The notes under the pieces: model-generated
What the model saw: only the letters and a program-made list of their open reading frames with translations
Database searches by the model: none
What the model was told of the DNA's origin: nothing
Assembly (NCBI GenBank): GCA_024274785.1
Contig: JAJSAM010000024.1
Coordinates: 27,880-91,879, forward strand
Source of the DNA: Planctomycetota bacterium
GTDB lineage: Bacteria > Planctomycetota > JAJSAM01
DNA length: 64,000 nucleotides
Direction of reading: 5' to 3'
Position numbers and translations under genes: made by a program
Shown here: in pieces, positions 5,711 to 48,648 of the stretch
How the letters are laid out: the number at the start of each line of letters is the position of its first letter
Numbering within the stretch: the first letter of the stretch is position 1

Positions 5711-6462
5711 TCACGACCGCAGTTGCGCTGCTGGTTTCGTTCGCCTTCGTCCTTTCCGGCTGCCAGAACGGTTCGCCTCCGAACGGTAAGGGGGGGAGCC
5801 AGCCGGCCGGAAGCGCCGGAGTCAAGGCGCCGGCACCGGGAGCGAAGTTCCTGGGGGGGCAGCTTGTGCTCGAGTCCATCTCGGTTCCCGCCTCGGCCGG
5901 CCAGCCGGTCACCGTGGTCCTGAAGAACGTCGCCGGGCAGGCGCTCGAAGGGCTGACCATTCAGATGATCTTTCTGAGTCCATCCACGGACGGGATGTCC
6001 GAGTTCGACAGCGAGAAAGTCATCGACGAGGTCAACAAGCTCTACAAGAACGAGAGCCACACCCTCTCCGTGAACCGGGGCGGTCGCGGCAAGCTCCTGG
6101 AAGTCAGGCTGAACGTGAGTTCCGGAGAGACCCGGTTCATGCCGACCACGACCCGGGAGGGCGGTGTTCCGGGCAGCCGGCTGCTCGGCGGACTCCTCGA
6201 GGTCGTCGGAGTGGATAACCGGCTGACCTTCGAACCTCCGTCCATCTCCTTCACCGTGGAGAACGTCTCGAACAAGGTGGTCGAGGGCTTCGGGTTCCAG
6301 GTTGTTCTGCGGCAGAGGAACGGGAAGCTCGTGGAGACTCGCTGGCAGGAGGTGGTCGAGAGCCTGCCTCCCGGGGGGAAGCTCACGTTGAGCGCGGATC
6401 TCTCCGGCAATGACGTCGGAGCCGCCGAGTCCGTTCTCAAGATCAGGTGGGAAGACATCTAG
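5692..6462 (+). CDS. Lipoprotein, hypothetical
   Basis: ATG at 5692, overlapping the upstream gene by 19 nt. MRTRILITTAVALLVSFAFVLSGC is a lipobox signal peptide. About 230 aa of predicted beta-rich periplasmic domain follow. Confidence 0.6.
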   Translation: MRTRILITTAVALLVSFAFVLSGCQNGSPPNGKGGSQPAGSAGVKAPAPGAKFLGGQLVLESISVPASAGQPVTVVLKNVAGQALEGLTIQMIFLSPSTDGMSEFDSEKVIDEVNKLYKNESHTLSVNRGGRGKLLEVRLNVSSGETRFMPTTTREGGVPGSRLLGGLLEVVGVDNRLTFEPPSISFTVENVSNKVVEGFGFQVVLRQRNGKLVETRWQEVVESLPPGGKLTLSADLSGNDVGAAESVLKIRWEDI

Positions 6463-6466
6463 CCAG

Positions 6467-9400
6467 ATGGCCGACCTCTCCCTCAATTGCCCGAAGTGCG
6501 GCGGATCCGTCAACGTCCCCATCGAGGAGGACGTCAAGGAGTACGTCTGCACCCACTGCGGGGAGAAGAACGCCCTGCACGACAACCTCGGGCTCATGGG
6601 CGGCCACTACACCGACCCCCTGATCGGCGCGGTGGTCTCCGAGTGGGAGATCCAGGAGAAGGTGGGCGAGGGCGGATTCGGTTCGGTCTACCGCGCCTAC
6701 GACAAGAATCTCCAGCGGGCCGTGGCCATGAAGGTCATGCTCCCCTCGCTGACCTCCAACCTGGAGTTCGTTCAGAAATTCATCCGCGAGGCGATCACCG
6801 CGGCCCAGCTCAACCACCCGAACATCGTCGGGATTCACCGGGTCGGCCGCGACGAGGAGCGCAACCTCCACTTCCTGGTGATGGAGTTCCTGGAAGGGAA
6901 GACGCTCTCCGACATCATCGAGGAGACCGGGGAATTCGCGATCGACGAGGCCATCTCGATCATCTCGCAGTGCTCGGATGCCCTCGCGGTCGCGCACGAC
7001 AAGAACATCATCCACCGGGACATCAAGCCCGAGAACCTGATGATGGACGCGGCCGGTACGGTCAAGATCACGGACTTCGGCCTGGCCAAGACCATGTCGA
7101 CGGACCAGAAGTCCACCAAGGTGATGGGTACGCCCCACTACATGTCCCCCGAGCAGTTCGAGGGGAAGGCGGTGGACGGCCGGACGGACATCTACTCGTT
7201 GGGCGTGACCTTCTACTACATGCTGACGAAGGCCCAGCCCTACGAAGGCACGAACACCGTCCAGATCATCTACTCGATCCTGACGCAGGACCCGAAGCCG
7301 GTCATGGACCTCAACCCGGAGGTTCCCGAGGAGATCTGGCGAATCATCAAGAAGATGATCGCGAAGGACTCCGCCGATCGTTACGAGAACTTCCGCGAGG
7401 TCCGCACCGATCTCAGCAACTTCCAGGACGGGTCCCAGTCGCAGAAGGTGGTCTGCCCGAAGTGCGAGGTCAGCAACGTCCGCGGTCGCCGGTTCTGCCG
7501 GGAGTGCGGGACCAGCCTGCAGATCCGCTGTCCGCACTGCGGCAGCGAAGAGGTCGCGGGAACCAGGCACTGCGGTGAGTGCGGCGCCAACGTCGAGAAC
7601 CTGATCCAGATCCGCGAGAACCTCGGCCGCGGCGAGAAGCTCCGAGCTTTCGGGGATCTGAAGCGGGCTCTCGGCTTCTACCAGGAGGTCCTGCAACTCG
7701 ATCCGGACCACGCGGAGGCCCACGAAGCCACAAAGGCGATCCGGGACGATCTGCTGTCGATCGAGGCCAAGAAGGCCCGGGTGGACGCCCTGGTCGAGGA
7801 GGGCAACGCCGAAGGCGCCCTGGCCGAGGTCGACGGGCTGATGTCCAACTACCCGAAGATCGATGAGGTCAAGACCTACGGGCAGACCGTCCGGCGCTCC
7901 CTGCTGCACCGCGTCGTCGATGCGCACATGCTCCATGCCGAGCAGTGCCTCCAGAAGGGAGAGCTGGAATCCGCGCTCGAGGCCTACCAGAAGGCGCTCG
8001 GGGTGGACCCGGATCGGGCCGACGTGGCCGAGAAGCAGCGCGACCTGAAGACCCGCATGGCCGCGATGGAGCAGACCCTCGCGTCGGCGGAGACCGCCCT
8101 CTCGGACGGTCGGCACGAAGATGCGCTGCGAGCCGCACGCGACGTGCTGAACCTGAAGCCGGACCACCCGCGGGCGAACGAGATTCAGGAAGAGGCGAAA
8201 CGCTTCGTCGACAGTGTCGGGGGGTTCGTCAAGGAAGCGCGCGAACTCATCGAAAGGAGCGACTTCATACAGGCGATCTCGCGCCTGGAGATGGCGGCTG
8301 AGATCAGCCCCGGTGACGGCAGTGTGCAGTCCCTTCTGGCCGAGGCCGTCCGTCGACGTGACGCCTTCGATGAGAAGATCGGCAGCGCGCGACGCCTGCT
8401 GGCGGACGGTTCGCTCGACGAGGCCGAGAGCGAAGTGAAGGAAGCCCTCGCCGAGCGTCCCGACGACGCCGCCGCTCTCGGGCTCAAGCGGGAAGTCGAC
8501 GACCTGCTCGCCTCCCGTGCGAAGCACCTCGAGAACGAAGCCCTCGTCAAGGAGGGCCTCGATGCGGAACACCAGGGGGATCTCGAGCGGGCGAAGAAGT
8601 GCCTGAACCGCGCCTTGACGCGGGACCCGGAGAACGACGCCGCGGTTATCGCCCTCGACCGGCTGAAGAGCAAGATCACCGAGGCGAAGCGACTGCGCAC
8701 GGTCGCTCAGAGCCACAGCGACAAGGGAGAGTTCGGTCTGGCCGCGGCGACGTTGGACGAACTCGCCGAGCTTCTGCCCGGGGATCGCAGTGTCCTCGAG
8801 GAGGCGGAGGCGGCAAAGCAGAAGCAGGATGGTATCGACCAGGCCCTGCAACACGCATCCCAGGCGGTTGCCGCGAAGAACTTCGACGCCGCTCTCGTCG
8901 CCGCGGAGAAGGTCCTCGCCGCTTCGCCGCAGAATCGCCCGGCCCTGAACTTCCAGCGCGAAGCGGTTCGCGGCAAGGCGGCGATCGAGAAACACCTCGA
9001 AGAGGCCCGCGGCCTGATCGAGTCCGAACTCTTCGACGATGCCCTCGCCCTGCTCGAGAAGGCCGGGGAACTCGGCGCCACCGCCGACTCCGTCGAACGC
9101 CTTCGCGATGCGGCGGAGGAGGGCAAGGTCCTCCTGCTCAAGTCCGAGGCGACGCGTGCCTTCGAATTCAAGGACTTCAAGGGTGCGGAGGAGCGCTTCA
9201 GTCAGATCATCGAACTCGGCAAGGATGACCCGGACGCGGTCAAGGGCCTGAAACTCGCCGGGAAGATGATCCGCCGCGGGGAGCGGGAGACGGTGCTGCC
9301 GAAGTTGCTCATGGTGGTGGCGTCGCTGGCCGTTCTCTTCCTGATCCAGTTCAAGGCCCTTCAGGGTGAATCCACCTTCGATCCGGTGGACCCCGTGCAG

Positions 9401-10459
9401 GTCGCCCTGGCGGAAGCCAGCCAGTTGGAGAAAGCCGCGGTTCTGAGTTCCGATCCCGCGAAGTGGACGAAGCTCGGCGTCTTTTTCGGGGAGAAGCTCG
9501 AGCAGGACGGTGACGTCATCGCTTTCCGGGAGGGTCGCGAATTCGCCAAAGCCATGTCGGCGGCGACATCCGTTCCGGAAGGCGATCTGCTGGCCGTCAA
9601 GGCCGCATACGAGGCGGCCCTCGACAAGGTGGGTACCGATACCAACGTCGCCAAGAACCGCACCGAGATGATCAAGGATGCCATCCGCCCCATCGATGGC
9701 GCCTTGCGGGAAAACTTCGAGGGTGAGGTCTCCCGGGCCGAGAACCTGGAGGGGCGGGGCGACTGGCCGGGGGCCTACGGGATCTATGATCAACTGCGCT
9801 CGAGCCAGGCGGCCGGCGCGGTGAAGAGCGACATCGCCAGGGACCTCGAGGTCGGGCGGATGTTCTGCCGGGCGATGATCGACGCCGGGGCGGAGGAGGG
9901 AAGTACCCGGCTGGCGAGCCTGCGGGCCGCGGTGCCTCTGATCGGCGACAGATCACGAATGCGTGGGATCCGGCTCGGGAAGATCAACGAGGCCAAGGCC
10001 GCCACGTTGAAGACGTGGATCGCGGAGATCGGCAGGAACGCCGGGGACGACTGGCGGTTGGCCTCGAGTGAGTATACGAAGGTCCTGGCGGACCCCGCGG
10101 TGAACGAGGATGCGAAGCTCAAGGCGGAGGTGCTTCGGCGGCAGCAGTTCGCCGAGACGTTGACCCAGGCCCAGACCCTCTACGAAAACGGACAATACGA
10201 GAAGGCCGTGCTCTTTCACGAGGACGCCAGGAAGACCCCGGATGCGAGCGCGGGTGACCTCGAGGCCGCCGAGACCGGCCGCCTGGCGGTGATCGCCGCC
10301 TGGAAGAAGAGCGTGAGGACCCGGATCCGGAGCGCCCGTGCGGGGGGGGACATTACCCCCGAGCAGTACTACGTGAAGATCATATCGGAGCTCGCGGACA
10401 TGTCGCGGGTCCTGGGTGTGGATCCGGAAACTCTCTACCGAGAGGTCACTGGAGACTAG
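6467..10459 (+). CDS. Ser/Thr protein kinase with N-terminal and central zinc ribbons, a long TPR region, one TM helix and a C-terminal domain
   Basis: Hanks kinase motifs (VAMKV, HRDIKPEN, DFGLAK, GTPHYMSPE). CxxC pairs at CPKCGG/CTHCGE and CPKCE/CRECG/CPHCG/CGECG. TPR-like helices, then the TM segment LLMVVASLAVLFLIQF. Confidence 0.85.
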   Translation: MADLSLNCPKCGGSVNVPIEEDVKEYVCTHCGEKNALHDNLGLMGGHYTDPLIGAVVSEWEIQEKVGEGGFGSVYRAYDKNLQRAVAMKVMLPSLTSNLEFVQKFIREAITAAQLNHPNIVGIHRVGRDEERNLHFLVMEFLEGKTLSDIIEETGEFAIDEAISIISQCSDALAVAHDKNIIHRDIKPENLMMDAAGTVKITDFGLAKTMSTDQKSTKVMGTPHYMSPEQFEGKAVDGRTDIYSLGVTFYYMLTKAQPYEGTNTVQIIYSILTQDPKPVMDLNPEVPEEIWRIIKKMIAKDSADRYENFREVRTDLSNFQDGSQSQKVVCPKCEVSNVRGRRFCRECGTSLQIRCPHCGSEEVAGTRHCGECGANVENLIQIRENLGRGEKLRAFGDLKRALGFYQEVLQLDPDHAEAHEATKAIRDDLLSIEAKKARVDALVEEGNAEGALAEVDGLMSNYPKIDEVKTYGQTVRRSLLHRVVDAHMLHAEQCLQKGELESALEAYQKALGVDPDRADVAEKQRDLKTRMAAMEQTLASAETALSDGRHEDALRAARDVLNLKPDHPRANEIQEEAKRFVDSVGGFVKEARELIERSDFIQAISRLEMAAEISPGDGSVQSLLAEAVRRRDAFDEKIGSARRLLADGSLDEAESEVKEALAERPDDAAALGLKREVDDLLASRAKHLENEALVKEGLDAEHQGDLERAKKCLNRALTRDPENDAAVIALDRLKSKITEAKRLRTVAQSHSDKGEFGLAAATLDELAELLPGDRSVLEEAEAAKQKQDGIDQALQHASQAVAAKNFDAALVAAEKVLAASPQNRPALNFQREAVRGKAAIEKHLEEARGLIESELFDDALALLEKAGELGATADSVERLRDAAEEGKVLLLKSEATRAFEFKDFKGAEERFSQIIELGKDDPDAVKGLKLAGKMIRRGERETVLPKLLMVVASLAVLFLIQFKALQGESTFDPVDPVQVALAEASQLEKAAVLSSDPAKWTKLGVFFGEKLEQDGDVIAFREGREFAKAMSAATSVPEGDLLAVKAAYEAALDKVGTDTNVAKNRTEMIKDAIRPIDGALRENFEGEVSRAENLEGRGDWPGAYGIYDQLRSSQAAGAVKSDIARDLEVGRMFCRAMIDAGAEEGSTRLASLRAAVPLIGDRSRMRGIRLGKINEAKAATLKTWIAEIGRNAGDDWRLASSEYTKVLADPAVNEDAKLKAEVLRRQQFAETLTQAQTLYENGQYEKAVLFHEDARKTPDASAGDLEAAETGRLAVIAAWKKSVRTRIRSARAGGDITPEQYYVKIISELADMSRVLGVDPETLYREVTGD

Positions 10460-10461
10460 CG

Positions 10462-12444
10462 ATGGCTGATCGAGGATCGATAAAGGTGACCGTCACCGGC
10501 GTCACCGACGTCGGTCGGGTTCGAGACCACAACGAGGATAACCTCCTGGTGGCCGACCTGACCGCGGAGGAGAGGCCGGGGAGTGGTCAGACCATCTCGC
10601 TTCAGTTGGGAGATCGCGGGCTCCTCCTGGCCGTCGCCGACGGCATGGGCGGAGCGGCTTCCGGCGAAATCGCGAGCGAGACGGACGTGGAAATCCTGTT
10701 CGAGACCTTCTCCGCGAAGGAAGTGACGGAGGGCTCCGCGGAGTCGGAGAAGATCAGCGCCGCTCTCGACGACAGCCTCCAGACCGCCAACACCCGGATC
10801 CACAACCGGGGGCTCGAGCAGGCGGAGCATCGGGGCATGGGCACGACCATGACCGCCGCATTCGTCTCGGGAGACTCGGTACACATCGCGCAGGTGGGGG
10901 ACAGCCGGGCCTACCTGCTGCGCAAGAACAAGCTCGTGCAGGTAACCAAAGACCAGTCCCTGATCTCGCAACTCATCGAAGACGGAACCCTGACGGAGGA
11001 GGAGGCGGAGAAGCTCGGGGGCCGGAACATCATCCTGCAGGCGCTGGGTGTGGAAGCGGACGTCAACGTCGAAGTGAAGAGCATGGAAGTGCTCGACGGC
11101 GACCTCCTGATGCTCTGCTCGGACGGACTTTCCGGCATGGTGAAGGACGCCATGATGGAGGAGAACCTGGCTTCGGCGGATGATGTCGGGGCGGCTGCGG
11201 AACGGCTCGTCAGCATGGCGAACGACGCCGGCGGCCGGGATAATATCACCGTCATTCTCGCGCGGTTCGAAGGACCCGGGCTTCGAGCCCCCATGAAGGC
11301 GATCGAGAGCAGGAGAAAAGGCGGAAGTCGCGGTGGACCGGCCCCCGTGGAGCGATTCGTCGCCCCGGAAACGCCCCAGGCAGAGCCGAAGCGGAGCAGG
11401 TCGCGAACTCTGCTCCTCGGCGGGATCGGCGTGATCGGGCTGGCGGTCATCGTGTTTCTCCTTTCCGGTGGCTCGAGCAGTGTGACCCTGGTCTTTCCCG
11501 CTCCCGGAGGGACGGCCACGATGACCCCGGCGGGCGGCGGGGGCGGAGGGCTCGTGATCAAGGCGGGACCCGGGGAAACGACGGTGGAGGTGACCGACCT
11601 CGAGCCGGGGAATTACATTCTCGAAGCTCGACTTGCGCACTACCAGCCCTTGACCGCCCGCCTGATTTCGGTGTCCCAGGGCGCCTCCCGACTGAAGGTT
11701 CCGTTCTCGCCTCTTCCCGGAAGGCTGACGCTCAAGACCGGGACGCCGCACGTGACGGTTGCGATCCTGGAGATCGATCCGTTCGAGCCGGATCATCCCT
11801 ATCGGGAGGTGATCGAGAACCTGGCGGACCTCGCGGACGGAATGACCATCGCGCGGGTTCCGGCCGGCCTCCTCGGGTTGAGCGTCTCCCGGCAGGGCTT
11901 TCGGCCTCGTGAACTCACCGTGACTCTCCCGCCCGAGGGAGACGAGACGGTGACCCTGCCCGAACTCGAACCCATCAACGGGATCCTGGTCGTCCGTTGC
12001 CCGGTGCCCGGGGCGCGCGTAACCGTACTCGACGAATTCGGCGAGGAGATCATCTCGAAGTCGGTGGACAGTGCCGGGAGCGCCCTGGAACTCGAGGTGC
12101 GGGTCGGCACTTCCCGCAACGTGAAAATCACGCACGACGAACACCATCCCTTCGAACAGGTCGTCGAGGAGATCGCCGAGGGCGGCCGCGTCGCGCTCGA
12201 TGTGGAACTGGTGAAGAAGGACGGCGGTGTGACCGTGACCGGCCCCGCGAACGGTATCCTGACCTTCAGGCTGAAAGGGTCGGACCAGGTCGTCCGGCGT
12301 TCGAGGATCGAGCAGTCCGGTTCGGTGATGGTGAGCCTGCCCCCCGGAGAATACGAGGTCGAGATGATCGACGGGGAGACCACCGAGAACCTGGAGGTCG
12401 TCGTTTCGGCTTCGAAGGAAGCCAAGGTGAGGTTCAGCGAATGA
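10462..12444 (+). CDS. PP2C-family Ser/Thr phosphatase with a TM helix and extracytoplasmic PEGA-like beta domains
   Basis: ATG 2 nt after the kinase stop. PP2C motifs (GRVRDHNEDN, LAVADGMGG, DGGRDNITVI). TM segment LLLGGIGVIGLAVIVFLL. C-terminal repeats carry LEPGNY/LPPGEY PEGA-like signatures. Confidence 0.8.
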   Translation: MADRGSIKVTVTGVTDVGRVRDHNEDNLLVADLTAEERPGSGQTISLQLGDRGLLLAVADGMGGAASGEIASETDVEILFETFSAKEVTEGSAESEKISAALDDSLQTANTRIHNRGLEQAEHRGMGTTMTAAFVSGDSVHIAQVGDSRAYLLRKNKLVQVTKDQSLISQLIEDGTLTEEEAEKLGGRNIILQALGVEADVNVEVKSMEVLDGDLLMLCSDGLSGMVKDAMMEENLASADDVGAAAERLVSMANDAGGRDNITVILARFEGPGLRAPMKAIESRRKGGSRGGPAPVERFVAPETPQAEPKRSRSRTLLLGGIGVIGLAVIVFLLSGGSSSVTLVFPAPGGTATMTPAGGGGGGLVIKAGPGETTVEVTDLEPGNYILEARLAHYQPLTARLISVSQGASRLKVPFSPLPGRLTLKTGTPHVTVAILEIDPFEPDHPYREVIENLADLADGMTIARVPAGLLGLSVSRQGFRPRELTVTLPPEGDETVTLPELEPINGILVVRCPVPGARVTVLDEFGEEIISKSVDSAGSALELEVRVGTSRNVKITHDEHHPFEQVVEEIAEGGRVALDVELVKKDGGVTVTGPANGILTFRLKGSDQVVRRSRIEQSGSVMVSLPPGEYEVEMIDGETTENLEVVVSASKEAKVRFSE

Positions 12445-13883
12445 CGGACCCCTTCGTCGGCACCCTGGTTGGCGGCAGGTACCAGATCTCCTCCCGGATC
12501 GGTGAGGGGGGGATGGGGCTCGTGTACTTCGCCGAGGATCAGGTCACTGGAGATCGGGTCGCGGTCAAATTCCTGCATCGCCATCTGCTTCAGAACAAGG
12601 AGTTCGTGGCGCGGTTCCGGCAGGAGGCGAAGTCCGCCGGGAGCTTCACTCATGAGAACGTGGTGCAGGTCCTCTCCGCCGGGGACAGCGATGACGGCGT
12701 CCCGTTCATCGCGATGGACTTCTGCCCCGGCCGGAGTCTTCTGACCTTCATCGAGGAAACCGCTCCGGTACCCTACGACCGGGCCTGTCGCATTGTCGAG
12801 CAGGTGTTGCGCGCCCTCTCCGAGGCGCACCGCAACGGCATCATCCACCGCGACCTCAAGCCGGACAACATCAAGGTGGAGACCCGCGACGACGGTACCG
12901 ACTTCGTGAAGGTCCTCGATTTCGGCGTCGCCAAGTTCATCGGCACCGAGGACATGTCCGAGATGAGCGGTGCGGTGAAGACCAAGACCGGCGTGGTCTT
13001 CGGCACCCCCAAGTACATGGCTCCCGAGCAGATTCTCGGGGATCCCGTGGACGGACGCTCCGACATCTACTCCGTCGGCGCCATCCTGTACGAGATGCTC
13101 TCCGCTCATCCGCCGTTCGAGTCCGATGACGTCATGGAGTTCGTCACCAAGCACCTTACCGAGCCGGTGATGCCCCTCCGGAGGAAGGCTCCGAACGTCT
13201 CCGTACCTCCCGGCCTGGAGCAGGTCGTCCTCGCGATGCTCGACAAGAACCGGGTGGCCAGACCGTCGCGGGCGGCTGAAGTGGCGGACACGCTCCTGCT
13301 CTACTCGCAGCCGGGGGCCGGGGCCGGTGAACGCGGTGCGGGTGCGCCGCGGTTGCAGATCGGACTGCTCCTCTACCTCGTTGCGGGTCTCCTGGGCGGC
13401 GCGGCCGCGTATCTCCTCGCTCCGGAACATGCCTGGCTCGGGGGGCTTACGGGCGTGGGGCTCGGCATCGCGTGCGTCGTGGCGTTCTTCCTGTTTCCCA
13501 AGGTCGGAGAAGGGGCTTTCTGGGTGCGTACCCTGATTGTGGCGCTCCTGCTCGCGGGTACGGGAGCGGCGGCCCACCTCTTCGCGGGGGAAGTGCGGCC
13601 GCTCGTGTACTTCTACCCGGTGTCCGCGTTCCTCGTCTTCGTGCTCTACGCGGTGGGCTGGGGGCGCCGCAAACGCCTCCCCGCGGTGATCCTGGCCGGG
13701 CTTTTGGCGCCGATCCTGATCCTGGTCCTGATGCCGTACCCGGAGGGCAATCGGTTTGTGACTTTCTGGTCCCTCGATGCTTACGATATGCGGTCTCTTA
13801 CCACCGGTCTGGCTCTGGCCGCCATTGCGGTGGTGTTTGCCCTCGTGACGCTCCTGGCTCCTCGTGCCCACCGGGGCTTGTGA
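12441..13883 (+). CDS. Ser/Thr protein kinase with a C-terminal polytopic membrane domain
   Basis: ATG overlaps the upstream stop (ATGA). Kinase motifs (GEGGMGLVYFA, VAVKF, HRDLKPDN, DFGVAK, GTPKYMAPE), followed by 4-5 predicted TM helices. Confidence 0.85.
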   Translation: MTDPFVGTLVGGRYQISSRIGEGGMGLVYFAEDQVTGDRVAVKFLHRHLLQNKEFVARFRQEAKSAGSFTHENVVQVLSAGDSDDGVPFIAMDFCPGRSLLTFIEETAPVPYDRACRIVEQVLRALSEAHRNGIIHRDLKPDNIKVETRDDGTDFVKVLDFGVAKFIGTEDMSEMSGAVKTKTGVVFGTPKYMAPEQILGDPVDGRSDIYSVGAILYEMLSAHPPFESDDVMEFVTKHLTEPVMPLRRKAPNVSVPPGLEQVVLAMLDKNRVARPSRAAEVADTLLLYSQPGAGAGERGAGAPRLQIGLLLYLVAGLLGGAAAYLLAPEHAWLGGLTGVGLGIACVVAFFLFPKVGEGAFWVRTLIVALLLAGTGAAAHLFAGEVRPLVYFYPVSAFLVFVLYAVGWGRRKRLPAVILAGLLAPILILVLMPYPEGNRFVTFWSLDAYDMRSLTTGLALAAIAVVFALVTLLAPRAHRGL

Positions 13884-14013: not shown

Positions 14014-14886
14014 ATGTTCAGGCGTCTCGCATACGTTCCGATGATTCTCTGCCTGATAGCGACTTTCGCCTCTGCGGCGGAACTGACCATGGGGGGTGAA
14101 GGCGCCCTACTGAACGGGGCCGCGGTGGAAACGTATCCCGCGGCGCTCGCGGAAGGGGATCGGGTCGAAGGGCCGGCGACGGTGACGACGACTCTCGGTG
14201 ACACCATCAAGGTGGCGAAGGGCTCCGTTCTGGAGGTCAAGCCGGTGGATGGTGAGACGGAGTTGTTCTTCCTGCTGAAGGGTTTCGCCCGTGGCGAGAT
14301 CGGCAGCAAGACGAGCATCGCCCTCCCCGCGGGATGGCTCACCGGGCCCGCCGACGATACGGCAGCGTTCTACGTCGAGACCATCGACCCAGACCGCGGC
14401 TTCTTCCAGGTCAATGAGGGCAAGGGGCTGGTTTCCTACGGCATCTACCATGTTTTTCTCGGGGCGCGGCAGGCGGTCGAACTCGGCAAGAAGGGCGATC
14501 CCGACACGTTGGAGTTCTATACCCACCAGAGCAACCCCGGCACCGTGAAGATCGTGGCGGCCACCAGGGGGAAACTGGAGCTGACGCTTTCCGTCCCGAA
14601 GTCGACCCGCGGCATGCTCGAGCAGGTCGAGGGTGACGAATGGACGAAGGTTTCGAGCGATGCCTCCTCCTGGCAGGGTGGCAAGATCGGCATCGCCACG
14701 ATGGTGGACGGCGCGCCCGGCCAGGCCGGTTCGCTCGGTCCCGGCACGTTCGCCCGGATCAACAATGGCACCGGTGAAATCGAGTTCGGTTTCGTGGAAA
14801 TCGACTTTGCCATCGTCGAGAGAGCGATCTCTCTGACGAGCGAATTCCAGCTTCTCGCGGTCAGCAACTTCTTCGGCCTCGAGTAA
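14014..14886 (+). CDS. Secreted hypothetical protein
   Basis: ATG at 14014 is preceded by GGAGG. Signal peptide MFRRLAYVPMILCLIATFASA. No recognised catalytic motifs. Confidence 0.55.
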   Translation: MFRRLAYVPMILCLIATFASAAELTMGGEGALLNGAAVETYPAALAEGDRVEGPATVTTTLGDTIKVAKGSVLEVKPVDGETELFFLLKGFARGEIGSKTSIALPAGWLTGPADDTAAFYVETIDPDRGFFQVNEGKGLVSYGIYHVFLGARQAVELGKKGDPDTLEFYTHQSNPGTVKIVAATRGKLELTLSVPKSTRGMLEQVEGDEWTKVSSDASSWQGGKIGIATMVDGAPGQAGSLGPGTFARINNGTGEIEFGFVEIDFAIVERAISLTSEFQLLAVSNFFGLE

Positions 14887-14982: not shown

Positions 14983-16428
14983 ATGGGGCGGATGCTTGCG
15001 GTTATTACAGCGGCGGTCCTCATGCTGGGCCTCGCCACACCTGCCATGGCGCAGGACGGTGCGGCCCATGCCATCGATGACTTCGTCCAGCGCGGCTCGG
15101 ACTTCTTCGACAACAACCTGATCTTCGGCAAGATCCGGATCAGTCCCCGCCTGGACCAGAGGTTCATCTACGACGACAACATCTGGATGAACGATGCCAG
15201 CGAACCGCAGACCCGCGGTCGCCAGTGGGACTTCATCAGCAGCACCAAGGTCGGACTCTCTTTCGACCTCCCGGTGAACGAGGAGTACACGAAGTTCTTC
15301 AAGCGCTCGAAGGTGCGCCTGCTGACCTACGAAGCCGACTTCATGTGGTACTTCCGGAATACGGAAGTCAGCGACATCAACCATGATATCGGCACGTCCC
15401 TCTTCGCGTTCCTGTCCGACCTGACCAAAGCCAGCGGCGGCAAGCCGTACGGCTTCTTCTTCGACGTCAATGCGAACTATCGCATCATCATGAACCCGCT
15501 CGACCTGATTCAGCGTCCGCTCGGCCCGGCCCTGACCGGGGATCCGACGGGGATCCCGCTTGCTATCGGTGAGACCGATCGGTTGCAGTGGAAGCAGGCC
15601 AACGCCGAGGCCTATGTCGGCTGGAGAGGCAACTGGCTGGACATCCGGGCGGGGTACGAGTTCGAGTGGTACGAGTTCAAGGACGATTTCTACTCGCAGG
15701 CGGACCACCGCGAGCACACCTTCGTCGGTGAGATCGGGTGGAACCCCTGGTTCCACCCGCAGGGACGGATCTTCCTGAAGGGCAAGTACTCCGACCTTGA
15801 ATTCAAGACCGGGCTGCTGAACGGCGCCAACATCTGGGATGTACGCCTCGGTTTCGAGGGGCCGCTCTTCTCCAAGCGCTTCCGCTGGTATCTCGATGGC
15901 GGCGTCAAGGACTGGGAGAACCAGGCCGACGGTGGGTTCGTCTTCCGGAATGCCCAGGGTATCCCCGAGTTCCGGTCGAACCCCGACGACAGCGACTACA
16001 GCGGATTCGTCGGCAAGGGCCGCGTGGCCTTTACGCCCTGGCAGCAGCGCAAGACGATGTTCCAGCTCGAGGTCGCCCGGGACGTCAACTGGTCGGCGAT
16101 CGCGAACTATCGCGAAGACACCTATGTCATGCTGACGATCTTCGATGAGCTGATCCCGAAGAAGCTCGACTTCGACTTCGTCATCTCCTACAGCAAGCAC
16201 GACCCGTCGGATGGGCCCTACCGGCACCTGTTCGAGGTCGGCGCGGGTTTGACCTATCACCTGGTGCCCCAGGTGGACCTGACGATGCGCTATCTTTTCC
16301 GGAACCAGAGAAGCTTCGACGAGGTATCCGTCACCTTTGTCGGCCCGAATGGCGGCACCACGGATCTTGAAACCAACTCGAAGTTTCACCAGAACATCTT
16401 CTCCGTCGGCTTCGTGGTCTGGTGGTGA
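14983..16428 (+). CDS. Outer-membrane beta-barrel protein, candidate OM conduit for polysaccharide export
   Basis: ATG at 14983 is preceded by AAGGAG. Signal peptide ...LGLATPAMA. Alternating amphipathic beta strands. The C-terminus ...FSVGFVVWW has an aromatic OMP signature. Sits immediately upstream of the Wza-like gene. Confidence 0.6.
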   Translation: MGRMLAVITAAVLMLGLATPAMAQDGAAHAIDDFVQRGSDFFDNNLIFGKIRISPRLDQRFIYDDNIWMNDASEPQTRGRQWDFISSTKVGLSFDLPVNEEYTKFFKRSKVRLLTYEADFMWYFRNTEVSDINHDIGTSLFAFLSDLTKASGGKPYGFFFDVNANYRIIMNPLDLIQRPLGPALTGDPTGIPLAIGETDRLQWKQANAEAYVGWRGNWLDIRAGYEFEWYEFKDDFYSQADHREHTFVGEIGWNPWFHPQGRIFLKGKYSDLEFKTGLLNGANIWDVRLGFEGPLFSKRFRWYLDGGVKDWENQADGGFVFRNAQGIPEFRSNPDDSDYSGFVGKGRVAFTPWQQRKTMFQLEVARDVNWSAIANYREDTYVMLTIFDELIPKKLDFDFVISYSKHDPSDGPYRHLFEVGAGLTYHLVPQVDLTMRYLFRNQRSFDEVSVTFVGPNGGTTDLETNSKFHQNIFSVGFVVWW

Positions 16429-16496
16429 TCGGTTCGGTCGAAGGGAAGTAGGACGAACTCCCGGGTTTTTGTCTGCGACCGCACACCGCGGATAGA

Positions 16497-17471
16497 ATGC
16501 TGCCCATGCGATTCCCACTGATCGTTTTGCTCGTCATCACCCTGCTGGCCTCCTGCGGGTCGCCGCCGCCCACTCTTGCGCCGAAGAACGGAGGCATCGA
16601 GGGGCCGGTGTCGAAGGGGCCCACGCCGGAGGAACTCGAGCGTCTGCTCGGCAATGACGAGAAGGACTATCCGCTCTATCCCGGCGATCTCCTCCGGATC
16701 ACGGTCCAGGGCCACGAGGACCTCACGATCGAGCGGAAGATACCCGCGTCCGGCCGGATTCCCCTCTATGGACTGGATACCACCGATGCGGACGGCGGCA
16801 ATCCCCGGGTCACGGAGGTCGATGTCGCCGGACTCCGGCTGCCACAACTGGAGCAGAAACTCGCGACGCTCTACAAGCGGATCGTCAATCCTCCTTACGT
16901 GACGGTGAAGGTCGTGCAGTTCGCGCCGAAGGTGATCTATGTGGCTGGTGCGGTGGGTGGCCCGCGGGACTACCGGCTGCCGGATGAGACCCGGATCTCG
17001 CTGGTGCAGGCGCTGACGATGGCCGGGTGGTTCACCGAGGACGCGGCGAAGGACCGGGTCCGGGTGATCCGCGTGGATCCCCAGACCGGAGACCGGGTCC
17101 ACCTGCCGGCGATCGACGTGACGAAGATCATCTCGAGCGGCGACTCCGCCTGGGACATCCTGCTCCTACCCGGCGACACCATCACCGTCGACTCCCACGA
17201 GAGCAAGACCGTGTCTATCTTCGGACACGTGGAGCGTCCCGGCGAATATCCCTGGTCCCCGGGGATGACCCTGACGCGGCTGATCACCATCTCCGGCGGT
17301 CTCCGCACTTTCGCCAAGATGACGAACATCCGTGTCCTTCGGTCGGGGGTCGGTGGTAAAGAGGAGGATGGGGCCTACCACGTGGATCTGAAGGCCGTCC
17401 TCGACGGTGAAGAGCCGGACTACGAACTGGAGCCCGGCGACCGGATCTGGGTAGACGAGAGGTTCATCTAG
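16497..17471 (+). CDS. Polysaccharide export OPX protein (Wza-like, short form lacking the C-terminal OM-spanning helix)
   Basis: Lipoprotein signal LLVITLLASC. Poly_export motif YPLYPGDLLRITV. SLBB-like repeats. Ends without a C-terminal amphipathic helix. Confidence 0.8.
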   Translation: MLPMRFPLIVLLVITLLASCGSPPPTLAPKNGGIEGPVSKGPTPEELERLLGNDEKDYPLYPGDLLRITVQGHEDLTIERKIPASGRIPLYGLDTTDADGGNPRVTEVDVAGLRLPQLEQKLATLYKRIVNPPYVTVKVVQFAPKVIYVAGAVGGPRDYRLPDETRISLVQALTMAGWFTEDAAKDRVRVIRVDPQTGDRVHLPAIDVTKIISSGDSAWDILLLPGDTITVDSHESKTVSIFGHVERPGEYPWSPGMTLTRLITISGGLRTFAKMTNIRVLRSGVGGKEEDGAYHVDLKAVLDGEEPDYELEPGDRIWVDERFI

Positions 17472-19969
17472 TGAATCGTGGTGCGGTCCTCGCCCACTAT
17501 CTCGGCATCGTCAGGAAGCACTGGCTCCTGATCCTCATCATCGCCGCGGTGGTGCTCGGCTCCGGGTACTACTACCACAGCCGCCAGGTTCCCGTCTTCG
17601 AGGCGAAGGCGAAGCTGAAGATCCTGAAGAAATCGCGCAACCGCACCAGCGGCGACGTACCCCTGTCCTTCGAAGAGGACCAGGTCTTCTACAACACGCA
17701 GTACAACCTTCTGCGGACCCAGCTCGACTGGGCGGACAAGGTCCTCGACCGCGCGGCCTGGCTGATGATCGGTGCCTTCGACGTTCCGTACCAGGATGAC
17801 CCGGAAGGGGCTGGAGCGCTGGTGGCGGAGGCGCTGCCCGCGGCCCTCGAGGCGAGCCTCTTCGATGTGCTCGACAACCACGCGGATGGGGAATTCGACC
17901 TCCTCGAGATCGAACGCGACCCGGTGGCGAGAGCGGCCGTTGCGTCGGTTCGGGCGAAGGCATTCGTCGGAGTCTACAACCTGGATCCGGACACCTTCTT
18001 GGCGGGGGTCAAGGTCAGTCCGGTGCCCGGCACCTATCTCGCGGAACTCAGCTTTCAGGCGAGGGATCGGGGGGTGGCGGTCTTCTTCGCGAACCTCTAC
18101 GCGGAGCTTTATCGGGATGAGTCCAAGGGTGAGCGGGAGGAGATTCTCGAGAAGGAACTCGCCAGGCTGAAGGCGGTCCGGGACCAGCTCGAAGGAGATC
18201 CGAATGACAAGAACGATTTCGGGGATCTGGGCCGGGCCAGGAAGGCTCTCAAGCAGTTTCCGGCCACGGCGAAGAACAAGTCGATTCTGGTCGGGGACCG
18301 GAAGAACGTCTTCCAGGAGGAGGCGGACGTCGTCGCCGGCAAGATCAACAGCCTGGAGACGGAGCTGATCGCGCGCCAGACGGAGGAAGACGGATTGCTC
18401 GAGATTCTCGCCGAGCACGGCGTTTCGCTCGTCAGGAAGGAAGGTGCGGCGGAGGATGGACGAGAGGCCGAAGCGGAGGGTGAGGTCGAAGGGCTGATCA
18501 TCGACGGGGACGATGAGAAGAAGCAGAAGACGCTCCTGTTCCTCGCCGAGACGCAACCGATCCTCCGCCACCCGGTCCTGGGGCGCGACGAGACGGTGGC
18601 CCTCTATCGGGGGCGGGTGCGTGCGGCGGAGCAGGAGTTCCTCGAACTGCCCCGCGATCTCACCGACGAGCATCCTCAACGGCAGAAGGTTCGGGCGAAG
18701 CTCTCTCAGTCGAAGCTTCAACTCGGTGTGCAGGTGGAAGCGAGTATCGTCCGGTACCTCCTGACCGGTCGGGAAATCTCTCAAACGATCGAGATGCTGT
18801 ACGCCCGCCTCGAGAAGAAGCGTCAGGCGGCCGCGGTGTTGAACCGGGAGATCGTCGAACTCCAGCAACTGAATGAGGATGTCGGCACTCTGGTCGAGGA
18901 GAAGGCCGCGCTCGATCGGCGGTGGGACCTTCTGCAGGAGATGAAGAGACAGGCCGCGGATGTCGATGCCGGCAACACCGATATCCAGAACATCCACATG
19001 GTTCGCCGCGCGCGCCTGCGGGATGCCCGCCAGACGCAGCCGAACACCAGCCTGATTCTGGCGATGACCGTCCTCTCCGCGGTCTTCCTCTCCTTCGGGG
19101 CGGCATTCCTGATCGAGTTCCTCGACGACACGATCAAGACCAAGGCCGACTTCGAACGTTTCGTCGACGTGCCCCACCTCGGGTACATCCCCTCCATCAA
19201 CGTGAAGGAGTACCGGAACAAGGACATCGCGGTGCTCGAGAAACCACGATCGGGGGTCGCCGAGGCCTTTCGCTCCATCCGCACCGCCATCCTCTTCTCC
19301 AAGAAGGACCGGGAGATCAAGAGCCTGATGCTCACTTCAGCCGGTCCCGGTGAAGGTAAGACCACCGTGGCGGTGAACATGGCCGTGACCATGGCGCAGG
19401 CTTCCAGCGGGAAGGTGCTGCTCATCGATGCCGACCTGCGAAAGGCCCGGGTGCACAAGGCCCTCGGCCTGGACAACAAGCTCGGCCTGACCAACCTGCT
19501 CATCGGCAGCGTGAGTCTGGATGAGGTCACACAGGCGAGCCTCGTGGATGGTCTCGATGTGATCACCGCCGGTCCGCCGCCTCCGAACCCCGCCGAACTG
19601 CTCGGCGGGGATCGCATGGGGGCGATCCTGGAGGAGGCCAAGGGGCGGTATACCAAGGTGATCATCGACACGCCGCCGTTGGTCGCGGTCACCGATGCCT
19701 GCCTGCTGGCTCCGCTCGTGGAGGGTGTCTTTCTGGTGATCTCCGTCGGCAAGACCTCCTGGCGCCTGATCCAGAGAGGGAAGGAGTCGCTATCCTCGGT
19801 GGGCGTCGAGACAACCGGCGCGGTTCTGAACAACATCCGCATCGGCGGCCCGGGCTATGGCTACGGCTACGGCTATGGTTATGGATACGGGTACGGCTAC
19901 GGCGGCTATCACCATGAAGACGTGGAAGAAGCGGGGGAACCGGACGGCGGCAAAGCAGTGAAGCAGTAA
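17471..19969 (+). CDS. Polysaccharide co-polymerase / BY-family tyrosine autokinase (Wzc/EpsB-like)
   Basis: GTG start overlapping the Wza stop. N-terminal TM helix, long periplasmic coiled coil and a second TM helix. Cytoplasmic Walker A (SAGPGEGKTT), Walker A' (VLLIDADLRK) and B motifs. C-terminal GYGYGYGYGYGYGYGGY tyrosine cluster. Confidence 0.85.
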   Translation: MNRGAVLAHYLGIVRKHWLLILIIAAVVLGSGYYYHSRQVPVFEAKAKLKILKKSRNRTSGDVPLSFEEDQVFYNTQYNLLRTQLDWADKVLDRAAWLMIGAFDVPYQDDPEGAGALVAEALPAALEASLFDVLDNHADGEFDLLEIERDPVARAAVASVRAKAFVGVYNLDPDTFLAGVKVSPVPGTYLAELSFQARDRGVAVFFANLYAELYRDESKGEREEILEKELARLKAVRDQLEGDPNDKNDFGDLGRARKALKQFPATAKNKSILVGDRKNVFQEEADVVAGKINSLETELIARQTEEDGLLEILAEHGVSLVRKEGAAEDGREAEAEGEVEGLIIDGDDEKKQKTLLFLAETQPILRHPVLGRDETVALYRGRVRAAEQEFLELPRDLTDEHPQRQKVRAKLSQSKLQLGVQVEASIVRYLLTGREISQTIEMLYARLEKKRQAAAVLNREIVELQQLNEDVGTLVEEKAALDRRWDLLQEMKRQAADVDAGNTDIQNIHMVRRARLRDARQTQPNTSLILAMTVLSAVFLSFGAAFLIEFLDDTIKTKADFERFVDVPHLGYIPSINVKEYRNKDIAVLEKPRSGVAEAFRSIRTAILFSKKDREIKSLMLTSAGPGEGKTTVAVNMAVTMAQASSGKVLLIDADLRKARVHKALGLDNKLGLTNLLIGSVSLDEVTQASLVDGLDVITAGPPPPNPAELLGGDRMGAILEEAKGRYTKVIIDTPPLVAVTDACLLAPLVEGVFLVISVGKTSWRLIQRGKESLSSVGVETTGAVLNNIRIGGPGYGYGYGYGYGYGYGYGGYHHEDVEEAGEPDGGKAVKQ
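19857..19906 (+). repeat. In-frame (GGCTAY)n microsatellite encoding the Wzc (GY)n tyrosine cluster
   Basis: ggctatggctacggctacggctatggttatggatacgggtacggctacggc. Confidence 0.7.
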
Positions 19970-20072: not shown

Positions 20073-21095
20073 CTACTCCCCGAAGAACAGGAAGTACCCC
20101 GCCGCCAGTGCTCCCAGCAGGAGGATCACTCCGAGGATCATCGGCAGATAGTCCGCAAACGACGATTCGTCCCGGGCGGGCCGCCGGGGCTGTTGAGGGG
20201 GGGGCGCTTGTGGGGGCCGGGCCGGTTCGCGGGCGGCGGGTGCGGGTGCCGGTGCTTTTTCCGGCTTCGGCACCTCCCGTTGCGGTGATGGGGTCTTCGG
20301 CTTCGCCCCGGCCTTCAGCGTGTCGAGGTCGAGGCCGAGGTCCGAGAGATTGGTGATCGGCGTGGGCGTGGCGTCCAGGCTGTCCAGCAGGCCTCCTTCG
20401 GGGTCCGTGAACTTGAGCTCGGTGTGACCGACGCAGACCACATCTCCGTCCCGCACCTTCTTCGGCTCCGTCAAGCGTTCGCCGTTCAAAAGGCAGCCGT
20501 TCTTGGATCCCATGTCCACGACGGTGGTCGTTTCGCCGACGCGGCGGATCATGAGGTGCTTCCGGGAGATCGACCAGTGCCGGAGAACGAGATCGCCTTC
20601 TCCGTCGCGGCCGGCGCGATACTCCCGGTCCTCTTCCGTGATGACGAGGGTCTGCCCTTTCTCATCGTCGTTCATCACTTCGAAGACCGGCGGCTCCCGG
20701 GTCTCCGCGAAGGAACCGAGAACCTCCTTGACCATGTTCATGGCCACCATGGAAGTCCGTTCCGAGGTCGATTCGTCGAGCGCCTGCATGGGGCGATCGA
20801 TCTTCAGGCTGTAGCCCGCGATTCTGACTTCGGCGCCCTCCTCGAGACGGGTTCGCGATCCCGGACCCACCTCGCGGTCGTTCACCATCGTGCCCGCGCT
20901 GGAGCCCAGGTCGACGAGGAAAGGCACTTCGTCCTCGACGATGATCCGGGCATGATCCGCCGAAACCTGCATGTCCGGGATCTGGATGTCGTTCCGGGAA
21001 TGGCGGCCAATGGTGATGAGGTCCTGGGTGAACTCCAGGTCCCAGGTTTTCTCCTGGCCCTCGATTTCGCAGTTCATCGTGATTTTCAGGTCCAC
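20073..21095 (-). CDS. Double FHA-domain protein with a Pro-rich linker and a C-terminal TM anchor
   Basis: Two FHA cores (ITIGRHSRNDIQI...GSSAGTMVNDREV and LRHWSISRKHLMI...GSKNGCLLNGERL). Pro-rich PKTPSPQREVPKPEKAPAPAP. TM helix LPMILGVILLLGALAAGYFLFF. The start is probably the GTG 5 nt after GAGGGAG (21095); the alternative ATG is at 21077. Confidence 0.65.
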   Translation of the reverse strand: MDLKITMNCEIEGQEKTWDLEFTQDLITIGRHSRNDIQIPDMQVSADHARIIVEDEVPFLVDLGSSAGTMVNDREVGPGSRTRLEEGAEVRIAGYSLKIDRPMQALDESTSERTSMVAMNMVKEVLGSFAETREPPVFEVMNDDEKGQTLVITEEDREYRAGRDGEGDLVLRHWSISRKHLMIRRVGETTTVVDMGSKNGCLLNGERLTEPKKVRDGDVVCVGHTELKFTDPEGGLLDSLDATPTPITNLSDLGLDLDTLKAGAKPKTPSPQREVPKPEKAPAPAPAAREPARPPQAPPPQQPRRPARDESSFADYLPMILGVILLLGALAAGYFLFFGE

Positions 21096-21478
21096 GGCAA
21101 CTCCCTCGAGGTCGCGACTGAAAAACGGGCAGACCGGGATTCTAGCGGGAGGCGCCCCTGCTGACAACGAACTCGGGCTCAGCCCGCATTTCTCACCAGA
21201 GCGGACGACCGGGGGATGGTCGCGGCGCATCGCCTTCTCGGTCTACCCTGCGGGGCATCCGCGCCGGCCTGCTCTGGTTCACGCTGTCGTGTCCGAAATC
21301 CAACTGGACGCTCCCGGACCGCCAGCACATTCGCCCGGAGGTCGACCCTCCATTGTGCGGCGGGGCCGCGCCGTGAGAAAGGCTGGGCCGGTGCATCGAA
21401 GGTCTGTCCGGGAGAGATGCCGGCAGGCTACAATCCGGCCTTGATCTCGAAATGTCAGACCGCTTCCCGCGAGGTGCC

Positions 21479-36917: not shown

Positions 36918-36919
36918 GT

Positions 36920-37885: not shown

Positions 37886-37970
37886 CTTGCTCTCCTTGAT
37901 GGCCACCCGGAACGGGTGGAGCAGGCAAGCATACGGAATGAAACGTATTGCAAGTGGGTATCACTCATCT

Positions 37971-41259: not shown

Positions 41260-43380
<2,121 letters not shown>

Positions 43381-48589: not shown

Positions 48590-48648
48590 CTCCGGGGATT
48601 CCCGGAAGGTCAGGCAGCGCAGGAAGCCACAGCAGGAAGTCACGATCC

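What the first reader, a model, noticed from the sequence alone, without database searches (positions are those of the whole stretch)
14983..17471. Bipartite polysaccharide export: a short Wza-like OPX protein without the OM helix, paired with a dedicated beta-barrel protein
The Wza homologue (324 aa) ends right after its SLBB-like domains and lacks the C-terminal amphipathic helix that forms the outer-membrane channel in E. coli Wza. The gene immediately upstream encodes a roughly 480-aa protein with a signal peptide and a C-terminal aromatic beta-barrel signature (..GFVVWW). This matches the recently described myxobacterial arrangement in which a periplasmic OPX pairs with a separate integral OM beta-barrel. 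That is evidence that this locus uses such a composite translocon.
Basis: partly seen in the sequence, partly recalled or inferred. Interest (0 to 1): 0.55.

Follow-up and report, generated by a model that had tools for sequence, protein, structure and literature searches.

The report
Two-part polysaccharide exit channel
This locus encodes a periplasm-only Wza-type export protein next to its own 18-stranded outer-membrane barrel, a two-part sugar-polymer exit channel of a kind first described in 2022; it is a divergent new example, not a new mechanism.

Summary

The barrel family is rare: 68 representatives among 1.84 billion proteins. A profile comparison links it to Pfam BBP2_2 / EpsL-type barrels (hhalign 100%, E 2e-47). 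In all nine independent family contexts, and in three distant BBP2_2 loci, the barrel gene sits directly upstream of a helix-less OPX gene. Wherever the contig reaches further, a PCP or tyrosine-kinase gene follows.

The composite OPX/beta-barrel translocon reading is therefore supported, but only in silico; no complex prediction could be run. The arrangement is already published as widespread (Schwabe 2022, Saidi 2022, Mellouk 2026), so this is a new member of a known kind. The fresher points are a conserved 290-aa unknown secreted protein and a co-conserved Ser/Thr kinase and PP2C block.

The parts
14014..14886 (+). Conserved 290-aa secreted protein of unknown function, and a candidate fourth component of the module. 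The mechanical ORF starts at TTG 13993, but orthologues start at the Met encoded at 14014.
   Evidence: It has a signal-peptide-like N-terminus. It has no Pfam, NCBIfam or PDB match. It lies directly upstream of the barrel gene in L001 (76% identity), L007 (32%) and L009 (46% over the fragment). Unannotated 281-aa and 328-aa genes sit in the same place in two further contigs.
14983..16428 (+). Outer-membrane beta-barrel, 481 aa. Layout: signal peptide 1-24, a short N-terminal helix (about 26-42, low confidence), 18 long transmembrane strands, and hairpins in extracellular loops L6 (318-332) and L9 (449-463). C-terminus is GFVVWW. This is the proposed exit pore.
16497..17471 (+). Class-3 ('D1D2D2') OPX lipoprotein, 324 aa. 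It has Poly_export plus two SLBB domains, no Wza_C helix, and the C-terminal tail ...PGDRIWVDERFI.
   Evidence: Pfam and NCBIfam hits. Alignment to E. coli Wza ends at the D3/D4 boundary. Alignment to WzaB 9N9A runs to the last residues. Orthologues end identically.
17471..19969 (+). PCP-2a polysaccharide co-polymerase fused to a BY-kinase, 832 aa. Hydrophobic segments lie at about 14-36 and 527-550, giving a periplasmic domain of about 490 aa. The kinase domain is about 578-808, followed by a (GY)8 tyrosine tail. Translation appears coupled to the OPX gene through a 1-nt overlap.
   Evidence: NCBIfam TIGR01007 at 173 bits, above its cut-off, with weak Wzz and GNVR hits. PDB matches to CapAB, Etk and Wzc. 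Hydrophobic segments and Tyr count. Overlap of stop and start codons.
19853..19903 (+). GGCTAC x 8.5 tandem repeat that encodes the (GY)n autophosphorylation tail of the PCP/BY-kinase.
   Evidence: Tandem Repeats Finder. Orthologues keep GY tails of different length.
6410..13883 (+). Co-conserved signalling block. It comprises a 1349-aa Ser/Thr kinase with one TM (6410-10459), a 660-aa membrane PP2C phosphatase (10462-12444), and a Ser/Thr kinase with a polytopic C-terminus (probably 12441-13883). Inferred regulators of the export module.
   Evidence: The same three genes lie in the same order directly upstream of the module in L001/L003 and in L007/L008, where the barrel is only 20% identical. 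TM segments. SpoIIE/PP2C genes also lie next to distant BBP2_2-OPX-PCP modules.

Best explanation

Proposed mechanism:
- The 832-aa PCP/BY-kinase sits in the inner membrane.
- The 324-aa lipoprotein OPX (D1 plus two SLBB rings, no membrane helix) hangs from the inner leaflet of the outer membrane and forms the periplasmic conduit.
- The separate 18-stranded AlgE-like barrel supplies the pore through the outer membrane.
- The hydrophobic C-terminal tail of the OPX probably docks on the periplasmic rim of the barrel, as in M. xanthus WzaB-WzpB.

Shown here: the domain content, the absence of D4, the barrel fold prediction, homology to EPS-locus barrels, and strict conserved gene order.

Inferred: oligomerisation, the OPX-barrel contact, the substrate, and the pathway type.
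For: OPX:
- It has Poly_export plus 2 SLBB domains and no Wza_C or GfcC.
- It ends at the Wza D3/D4 boundary and at the same residue as WzaB 9N9A...VDERF-I against ...VPESF-F.
- In WzaB that tail is required for binding WzpB and for secretion (PMC12819527).

Barrel:
- It has a signal peptide and a terminal aromatic residue.
- The model shows 18 strands at pLDDT 84.5.
- hhalign to BBP2_2 / EpsL-type barrels gives 100%, E 2e-47 over 357 columns.

Synteny:
- Barrel then OPX in 9 of 9 family contexts, with a PCP/BY-kinase-type gene next wherever the contig reaches that far.
- The same order in 3 of 3 distant BBP2_2 loci, two of them with an adjacent Wzy_C polymerase gene.
- One of these (L090) pairs a canonical BBP2_2 barrel with a WzaB-like OPX (E 1e-26) that ends in VPESFF.

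Organism: it is a diderm with LptF/LptG and an MsbA-like gene in the window.

Pathway: the PCP is the kinase-fused PCP-2a type typical of Wzx/Wzy pathways.

Published precedent: PMC9601211, PMC9603273, PMC12819527.
Against: - No complex prediction and no experiment was possible, so the OPX-barrel contact is inferred from gene order and from one aligned tail.
- The barrel matches no curated family above threshold. There is no Pfam hit, and EpsL scores 18.6 bits against a cut-off of 275.
- Direct homology to EpsX/Wzp or VpsM was not testable.
- No wzx or wzy was found in the 64-kb window, so pathway type and substrate are unknown.
- A crude parity estimate gives a charged but slightly acidic lumen (net about -6), unlike electropositive AlgE. 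The estimate is too rough to interpret.
- The OPX is 324 aa, above the 280-aa limit under which 93% of the coupled barrels' OPX partners fell in Schwabe et al.
Confidence: 0.75

Rival explanations
1. The barrel is an accessory outer-membrane protein rather than the exit pore. It could be a Wzi-like lectin that anchors or organises the polymer on the surface, or an assembly factor. In that case the polymer would cross the outer membrane by another route.
Against: The OPX has no membrane-spanning segment, so some separate outer-membrane conduit is required. AlgE scores clearly higher than Wzi and aligns over more residues. There is no Pfam Wzi-family hit at E<=0.1. The N-terminal helix is single and of low confidence, with pLDDT 41-63 over the first 50 residues. 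No other barrel candidate lies in the conserved block.
Confidence: 0.12
2. The barrel is an unrelated nutrient porin that merely lies next to an OPX gene.
Against: The gene order is invariant in all nine family contexts down to 20% identity, and in three distant BBP2_2 loci. The nearest named relatives are EPS-locus outer-membrane proteins, EpsL and TIGR03016.
Confidence: 0.03
3. The module belongs to a PEP-CTERM/exosortase-type EPS system of the EpsL-EpsE-EpsF/G kind, not to the myxobacterial Wzp type. On this reading the barrel's role is tied to that system.
For: The best NCBIfam matches are sub-threshold hits to PEP-CTERM-associated models. These are TIGR03027 and TIGR03028 for the OPX, TIGR03018, TIGR03029 and TIGR03017 for the PCP, and TIGR03014 for the barrel. 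Distant barrel relatives hit TIGR03016 and TIGR03014.
Against: All these hits fall far below the curated cut-offs. No exosortase or PEP-CTERM gene was seen among the window ORFs scanned. This rival is also not mechanistically exclusive, since such systems use a short OPX plus a barrel too.
Confidence: 0.07

Closest known systems
M. xanthus composite translocons: EpsY/EpsX (= WzaX/WzpX), ExoA/ExoB (= WzaS/WzpS) and WzaB/WzpB, each with its PCP (Schwabe 2022 PMC9601211; Saidi 2022 PMC9603273; Mellouk 2026 PMC12819527)
   Same: Both have a lipoprotein OPX without an outer-membrane helix. Both have an adjacent 18-stranded barrel whose best solved structural match is AlgE. Both have a partner PCP. 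The OPX ends at the same residue as WzaB, with an aromatic or hydrophobic tail.
   Different: The OPX here has two SLBB domains (324 aa) against one (190-217 aa). The barrel shows no detectable direct match to a named Wzp model and sits in a divergent BBP2_2-like clade. The PCP is fused to its kinase. An extra conserved 290-aa protein and a kinase/phosphatase block accompany the module. Whether the D1 gating loop is present is unresolved.
'D1D2D2' OPX / beta-barrel couples and V. cholerae VpsN/VpsM (Schwabe 2022)
   Same: A longer helix-less OPX with two D2-like domains is coupled to an outer-membrane barrel, and the PCP is the nearest pathway gene.
   Different: At 324 aa the OPX exceeds their 280-aa working cut-off. 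Sequence relatedness to VpsM was not testable here.
Pfam BBP2_2 (PF10082) / NCBIfam TIGR03014 EpsL and TIGR03016 PEP-CTERM-associated outer-membrane proteins
   Same: Full-length profile-profile homology (hhalign 100%, E 2e-47), a shared YDDNIF motif after the first strand, and the same barrel-OPX-PCP gene order.
   Different: The window protein itself scores below every curated threshold. It is 60-80 residues longer than those barrels. No exosortase context was found.
E. coli Wza (Class-1 OPX, PDB 2J58)
   Same: D1-D2-D3 are homologous and collinear, and both are lipoproteins.
   Different: This OPX lacks the D4 amphipathic helix that forms the octameric alpha-helical outer-membrane pore.
AlgE / PgaA / BcsC / PelB barrels of synthase-dependent pathways
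   Different: There is no sequence similarity (9% identity), no TPR partner, and the coupling is to an OPX and PCP rather than to a synthase.

Membership tests
Class-3 OPX (Saidi 2022) / helix-less D1D2(D2) OPX (Schwabe 2022) | Poly_export (PES, PF02563) domain | tested here: met
   PF02563 at E 2.5e-14, 53.7 bits against a cut-off of 28.
Class-3 OPX (Saidi 2022) / helix-less D1D2(D2) OPX (Schwabe 2022) | Only SLBB domains follow, with no Wza_C and no GfcC domain | tested here: met
   Two SLBB/SLBB_2 stretches reach residue 319 of 324, with no Wza_C or GfcC hit at E<=0.1.
Class-3 OPX (Saidi 2022) / helix-less D1D2(D2) OPX (Schwabe 2022) | No C-terminal amphipathic outer-membrane helix | tested here: met
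   The alignment ends at Wza chain position 324 of 359 and only 5 residues follow. The stop codon overlaps the next gene's start. Orthologues end identically.
Class-3 OPX (Saidi 2022) / helix-less D1D2(D2) OPX (Schwabe 2022) | Length <=280 aa (Schwabe's empirical 'short OPX' cut-off) | tested here: not met
   The protein is 324 aa. The authors nevertheless include D1D2D2 variants of more than 250 aa, and Saidi's Class 3 has no length limit.
Class-3 OPX (Saidi 2022) / helix-less D1D2(D2) OPX (Schwabe 2022) | Absence of the D1 tyrosine-ring gating loop (Mellouk 2026) | tested here: inconclusive
   In the phmmer alignment Wza Tyr110 aligns with Pro83. However, the D1 loop region has two plausible registers and no OPX model was made.
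Class-3 OPX (Saidi 2022) / helix-less D1D2(D2) OPX (Schwabe 2022) | C-terminal aromatic tail that docks on the porin (Phe203-Phe204 in WzaB) | tested here: inconclusive
   ...DERF-I aligns with ...PESF-F and both proteins end there. A distant orthologue ends ...DEDWK. Position and hydrophobic character are conserved, but function was not tested.
Wzp / EpsX-type polysaccharide porin | Integral outer-membrane barrel of 18 strands with a signal peptide and a C-terminal aromatic residue | tested here: met
   The AF2 model (pLDDT 84.5) has 18 long strands. The signal peptide and WW end are in the sequence.
Wzp / EpsX-type polysaccharide porin | Closest solved folds are synthase-pathway exporters (AlgE, PgaA) | tested here: met
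Wzp / EpsX-type polysaccharide porin | Gene adjacent to a helix-less OPX gene | tested here: met
   Nine of nine family contexts and three of three distant BBP2_2 contexts.
Wzp / EpsX-type polysaccharide porin | Sequence homology to MXAN_7418/3226/1916 or VpsM | not testable with these tools
   Those sequences were not retrievable and the AFDB fold library was unavailable. There is only an indirect link: a WzaB-like OPX in L090 pairs with a BBP2_2 barrel.
Wzp / EpsX-type polysaccharide porin | Physical interaction or mutual stabilisation with the OPX, and a requirement for export | not testable with these tools
   This needs a multimer prediction or an experiment.
Pfam BBP2_2 (PF10082) / TIGR03014 EpsL | Score above the curated threshold | tested here: not met
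   No PF10082 hit at E<=0.1. EpsL scores 18.6 bits against a cut-off of 275. One family member, P0012, reaches 20.4 bits against 23.7.
Pfam BBP2_2 (PF10082) / TIGR03014 EpsL | Profile-level homology over the whole barrel | tested here: met
   hhalign of A2 against A3 gives 100%, E 2e-47 over 357 columns, and 13 of 14 A3 members match PF10082. Caveat: the A3 members were picked from hits of this family's own profile.
E. coli Wza-type (Class-1) OPX | D4 / Wza_C outer-membrane-spanning helix | tested here: not met
PCP-2a with BY-kinase (Wzc-like) | Two TM segments flanking a periplasmic domain, a C-terminal Walker-type kinase domain and a Tyr-rich tail | tested here: met
   TIGR01007 at 173 bits against a cut-off of 108. 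Matches to Wzc, Etk and CapB. Hydrophobic segments at about 14-36 and 527-550, and 9 Tyr in the last 40 residues.

The most novel reading that the evidence does not exclude
In a poorly sampled bacterial lineage the composite translocon may be part of a fixed seven-gene unit: Ser/Thr kinase, membrane PP2C, polytopic Ser/Thr kinase, 290-aa unknown secreted protein, barrel, OPX and PCP/BY-kinase. On this reading the 290-aa protein is a previously unrecognised fourth structural component of the translocon, for example a periplasmic adaptor, cap or gate. Export would then be switched by Ser/Thr phosphorylation in addition to the usual tyrosine autokinase cycle.
Probability: 0.2. Interest if true: 0.5.

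Novelty: new member of a known kind. Interest (0 to 1): 0.3.

Why it matters
It adds a well-supported example of the third type of outer-membrane polysaccharide exit, a periplasmic OPX plus a separate barrel. The example comes from a lineage with no close relative among GTDB species representatives.

It also links a small orphan protein family to the BBP2_2/EpsL barrels. That suggests these widely annotated 'putative porins' are the general partners of helix-less OPX proteins.

The co-conserved 290-aa protein and the kinase/phosphatase genes are concrete candidates for new accessory and regulatory parts. The core mechanism, however, is already published.

Tried and rejected
- Word-indexed homologue searches with the single protein and with two alignments found only 6-7 relatives. 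The full HMMER scan was needed.
- A scan of GTDB genomes with the barrel alignment found nothing. A broader alignment had no conserved stretch to search with.
- A PurA scan to name the organism gave at most 52% identity to many phyla, so the taxon remains unknown.
- The AFDB fold library was not available. Foldseek against PDB gave only generic barrel hits with TM-scores below 0.5.
- Rfam and tRNA scans of the window found nothing.
- Promoter and terminator scans were at chance level.
- Literature searches for PF10082, BBP2_2 or EpsL as a translocon part were unproductive.
- The 290-aa protein and a 627-aa polytopic protein gave no family or PDB match even at E=1.
- A parity-based estimate of lumen charge is too crude to assign polymer charge.
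- The Wzi-like and nutrient-porin readings were considered and ranked low (see the rival explanations).
Full report
OBSERVATION

The region holds four co-directional, tightly packed genes:
- A 290-aa secreted protein at 14014-14886. The mechanical ORF starts at 13993.
- A 481-aa protein at 14983-16428, with AAGGAG 11 nt upstream of its ATG.
- A 324-aa protein at 16497-17471.
- An 832-aa protein at 17471-19969. Its GTG start overlaps the preceding TAG stop by one base.

GC3 of about 0.81-0.85 supports all four reading frames.

THE OPX

The 324-aa product has a lipoprotein signal (LLAS-C20), Pfam Poly_export (54-139) and two SLBB domains reaching residue 319. It has no Wza_C or GfcC hit at E<=0.1. 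Its NCBIfam matches to short exporters (TIGR03027, TIGR03028, myxobacterial EpsY) are sub-threshold.

Against PDB sequences, residues 57-319 align with positions 64-324 of the 359-residue mature E. coli Wza. From my knowledge of the 2J58 domain boundaries, D4 covers precursor residues 345-376, that is about 325-356 in mature numbering. On that basis the protein stops at the D3/D4 junction. Five residues remain, and the next gene starts on the stop codon, so a cryptic helix is excluded. Orthologues at 69% and 36% identity end at the same column...PGDRIW[VI]DE[RD][FW][IK].

The last SLBB domain aligns with the crystal-structure sequence of M. xanthus WzaB (9N9A) up to the final residues...PGDRIWVDERF-I against ...PGDIVFVPESF-F. 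In WzaB, removing Ser202-Phe203-Phe204 abolishes binding to the porin WzpB and abolishes secretion (PMC12819527).

Whether the D1 tyrosine-ring loop is present could not be settled. The loop region has two plausible alignment registers.

THE BARREL

The 481-aa product has a cleavable signal peptide (AMA|QDG), no other hydrophobic segment, no Cys, and ends in GFVVWW. It has no Pfam hit and only an 18.6-bit match to EpsL.

With six sequences AlphaFold2 gave pLDDT 63. With a 23-sequence family alignment (A2) it gave pLDDT 84.5 and pTM 0.80. That model has 18 long strands, short turns on the side expected to face the periplasm, and long loops on the other side. Two of those loops, L6 and L9, carry hairpins. 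A low-confidence helix at 26-42 precedes the first strand.

FAMILY AND HOMOLOGY

The family is rare. The word-indexed search of 5.8 billion clusters found 6-7 relatives. A full HMMER scan of 1.84 billion representatives found 68 at E<=1e-3.

The weakest hits are 410-430-aa proteins that match Pfam BBP2_2 (PF10082) and NCBIfam TIGR03014 (EpsL) or TIGR03016, the PEP-CTERM-associated outer-membrane proteins. A profile-profile comparison of the two sets gives 100% probability, E 2e-47, over the whole barrel. The aligned region starts at a shared YDDNIF motif. One caveat is that the second set was drawn from hits of this family's own profile. I conclude that the window protein belongs to a divergent clade of the BBP2_2/EpsL superfamily, although it fails the curated thresholds.

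GENE ORDER

I examined nine independent contexts of the barrel family: the window; L001-L003 (64% identity); the contigs of P0005 (48%) and P0012 (37%); L004 (37%); L005 (21%); L006; L007/L008 (20%); and L009. In every one, the gene directly downstream of the barrel is a Poly_export OPX. The complete OPX genes are 321-331 aa. Wherever the contig continues, a PCP/BY-kinase-type gene follows.

Three distant canonical BBP2_2 loci (L090, L091, L092) show the same barrel-OPX-PCP order. Two of them also carry an adjacent Wzy_C polymerase gene. In L090 the 189-aa OPX matches WzaB at E 1e-26 and ends in VPESFF. This ties BBP2_2-type barrels to WzaB-like OPX proteins.

PCP AND CONTEXT

The 832-aa protein is a PCP-2a fused to a BY-kinase (TIGR01007, 173 bits; matches to Wzc, Etk and CapB). 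It has hydrophobic segments at about 14-36 and 527-550, a periplasmic domain of about 490 aa, and a (GY)8 tail encoded by a GGCTAC repeat.

The organism has LptF/LptG and an MsbA-like transporter, so it is a diderm. Elsewhere the window holds a GT4 glycosyltransferase, a WecA/MraY-type phosphoglycosyl transferase, UppS, a sugar nucleotidyltransferase and another GT. It has no recognisable wzx or wzy. The pathway type is therefore inferred from the PCP type and from the Wzy_C neighbours in distant loci.

PurA is at most 52% identical to any GTDB species representative, so the lineage is poorly sampled and unnamed here.

MECHANISM

The best-supported reading is a composite translocon. The lipid-anchored OPX ring (D1 plus two SLBB rings) forms the periplasmic conduit on top of the PCP. 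The 18-stranded barrel provides the outer-membrane pore. The OPX C-terminal hydrophobic tail docks on the barrel rim.

Shown: the domain architecture, the lack of D4, the barrel prediction, the homology and the conserved gene order.

Inferred: the stoichiometry, the contact, the substrate and the regulation.

The rivals rank low. A Wzi-like accessory role, a coincidental nutrient porin, and a PEP-CTERM-type system are each set out in the rival explanations with the evidence for and against.

COMPARISON AND NOVELTY

[quoted passage not shown] Their pairing with 18-stranded barrels was described in 2022 and shown biochemically in 2026 (PMC9603273, PMC9601211, PMC12819527). Schwabe et al. already list 'D1D2D2' OPX/barrel couples.

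This locus is therefore a new, divergent member of a known kind. Three points go beyond the finding:
- The orphan barrel family links to BBP2_2/EpsL.
- A 290-aa secreted protein with no detectable relatives in any curated library is always encoded just upstream of the barrel gene.
- A Ser/Thr kinase, PP2C and Ser/Thr kinase block stays attached to the module even where the barrel is only 20% identical. PP2C/SpoIIE genes also sit next to distant BBP2_2 modules.

VERDICT

Novelty is low to moderate, and I score interest at 0.3.

Noticed in passing
window 14014-14886 (+); L001 9074-9946; L007 6992-7891; L009 3-452: A 290-aa secreted protein with no Pfam, NCBIfam or PDB match is always encoded directly upstream of the barrel gene (32-76% identity between loci). 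It is a possible fourth component of the export module.
   Followed up: partly
window 6410-13883 (+); L001 1542-8942; L007 1-6843: A large TPR/zinc-ribbon Ser/Thr kinase, a membrane PP2C phosphatase with a periplasmic PEGA/CarboxypepD_reg-like part, and a Ser/Thr kinase with a polytopic tail are conserved in this order next to the module. This holds even where the barrel is only 20% identical. Distant BBP2_2 loci L090 and L092 also have a SpoIIE/PP2C gene just upstream.
   Followed up: partly
window 19853-19903 (+): A GGCTAC x 8.5 tandem repeat encodes a (GY)8 tyrosine tail on the PCP/BY-kinase. Orthologues keep GY or poly-Y tails of varying length, so repeat slippage could tune the number of phosphorylation sites.
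   Followed up: partly
window 20073-21230 (-), 41260-43380 (+), 45944-48589 (+), 48439-49953 (+): Four FHA-domain proteins lie in one 64-kb window. One is a double-FHA membrane protein convergent with the PCP gene. Another is an FHA-GAF sigma-54 activator. This points to heavy phospho-Thr signalling around the locus.
   Followed up: no
window 33189-35072 (+): A 627-aa protein with about 14 hydrophobic segments has no Pfam hit even at E=1. It is the only candidate in the window for an unrecognised polymerase or flippase-like membrane protein.
   Followed up: partly
L090 6001-9494: A canonical BBP2_2 barrel (PF10082, E 9e-37) lies directly upstream of a 189-aa OPX. That OPX matches M. xanthus WzaB at E 1e-26 and ends in the same VPESFF tail. 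This suggests that BBP2_2 'putative porins' are the general partners of WzaB-like OPX proteins.
   Followed up: partly
window 25994-27268 (+): PurA is at most 52% identical to any of 185,579 GTDB species representatives, and the top hits spread over many phyla. The barrel family was not found in that collection at all. The source lineage appears poorly represented.
   Followed up: partly
window 34978-37906 (-): A run of NrfD-like membrane subunit, 4Fe-4S ferredoxin-type subunit and multihaem cytochrome c genes (an Nrf/Psr/ACIII-like respiratory module) lies about 15 kb downstream. It is unrelated to the finding.
   Followed up: no
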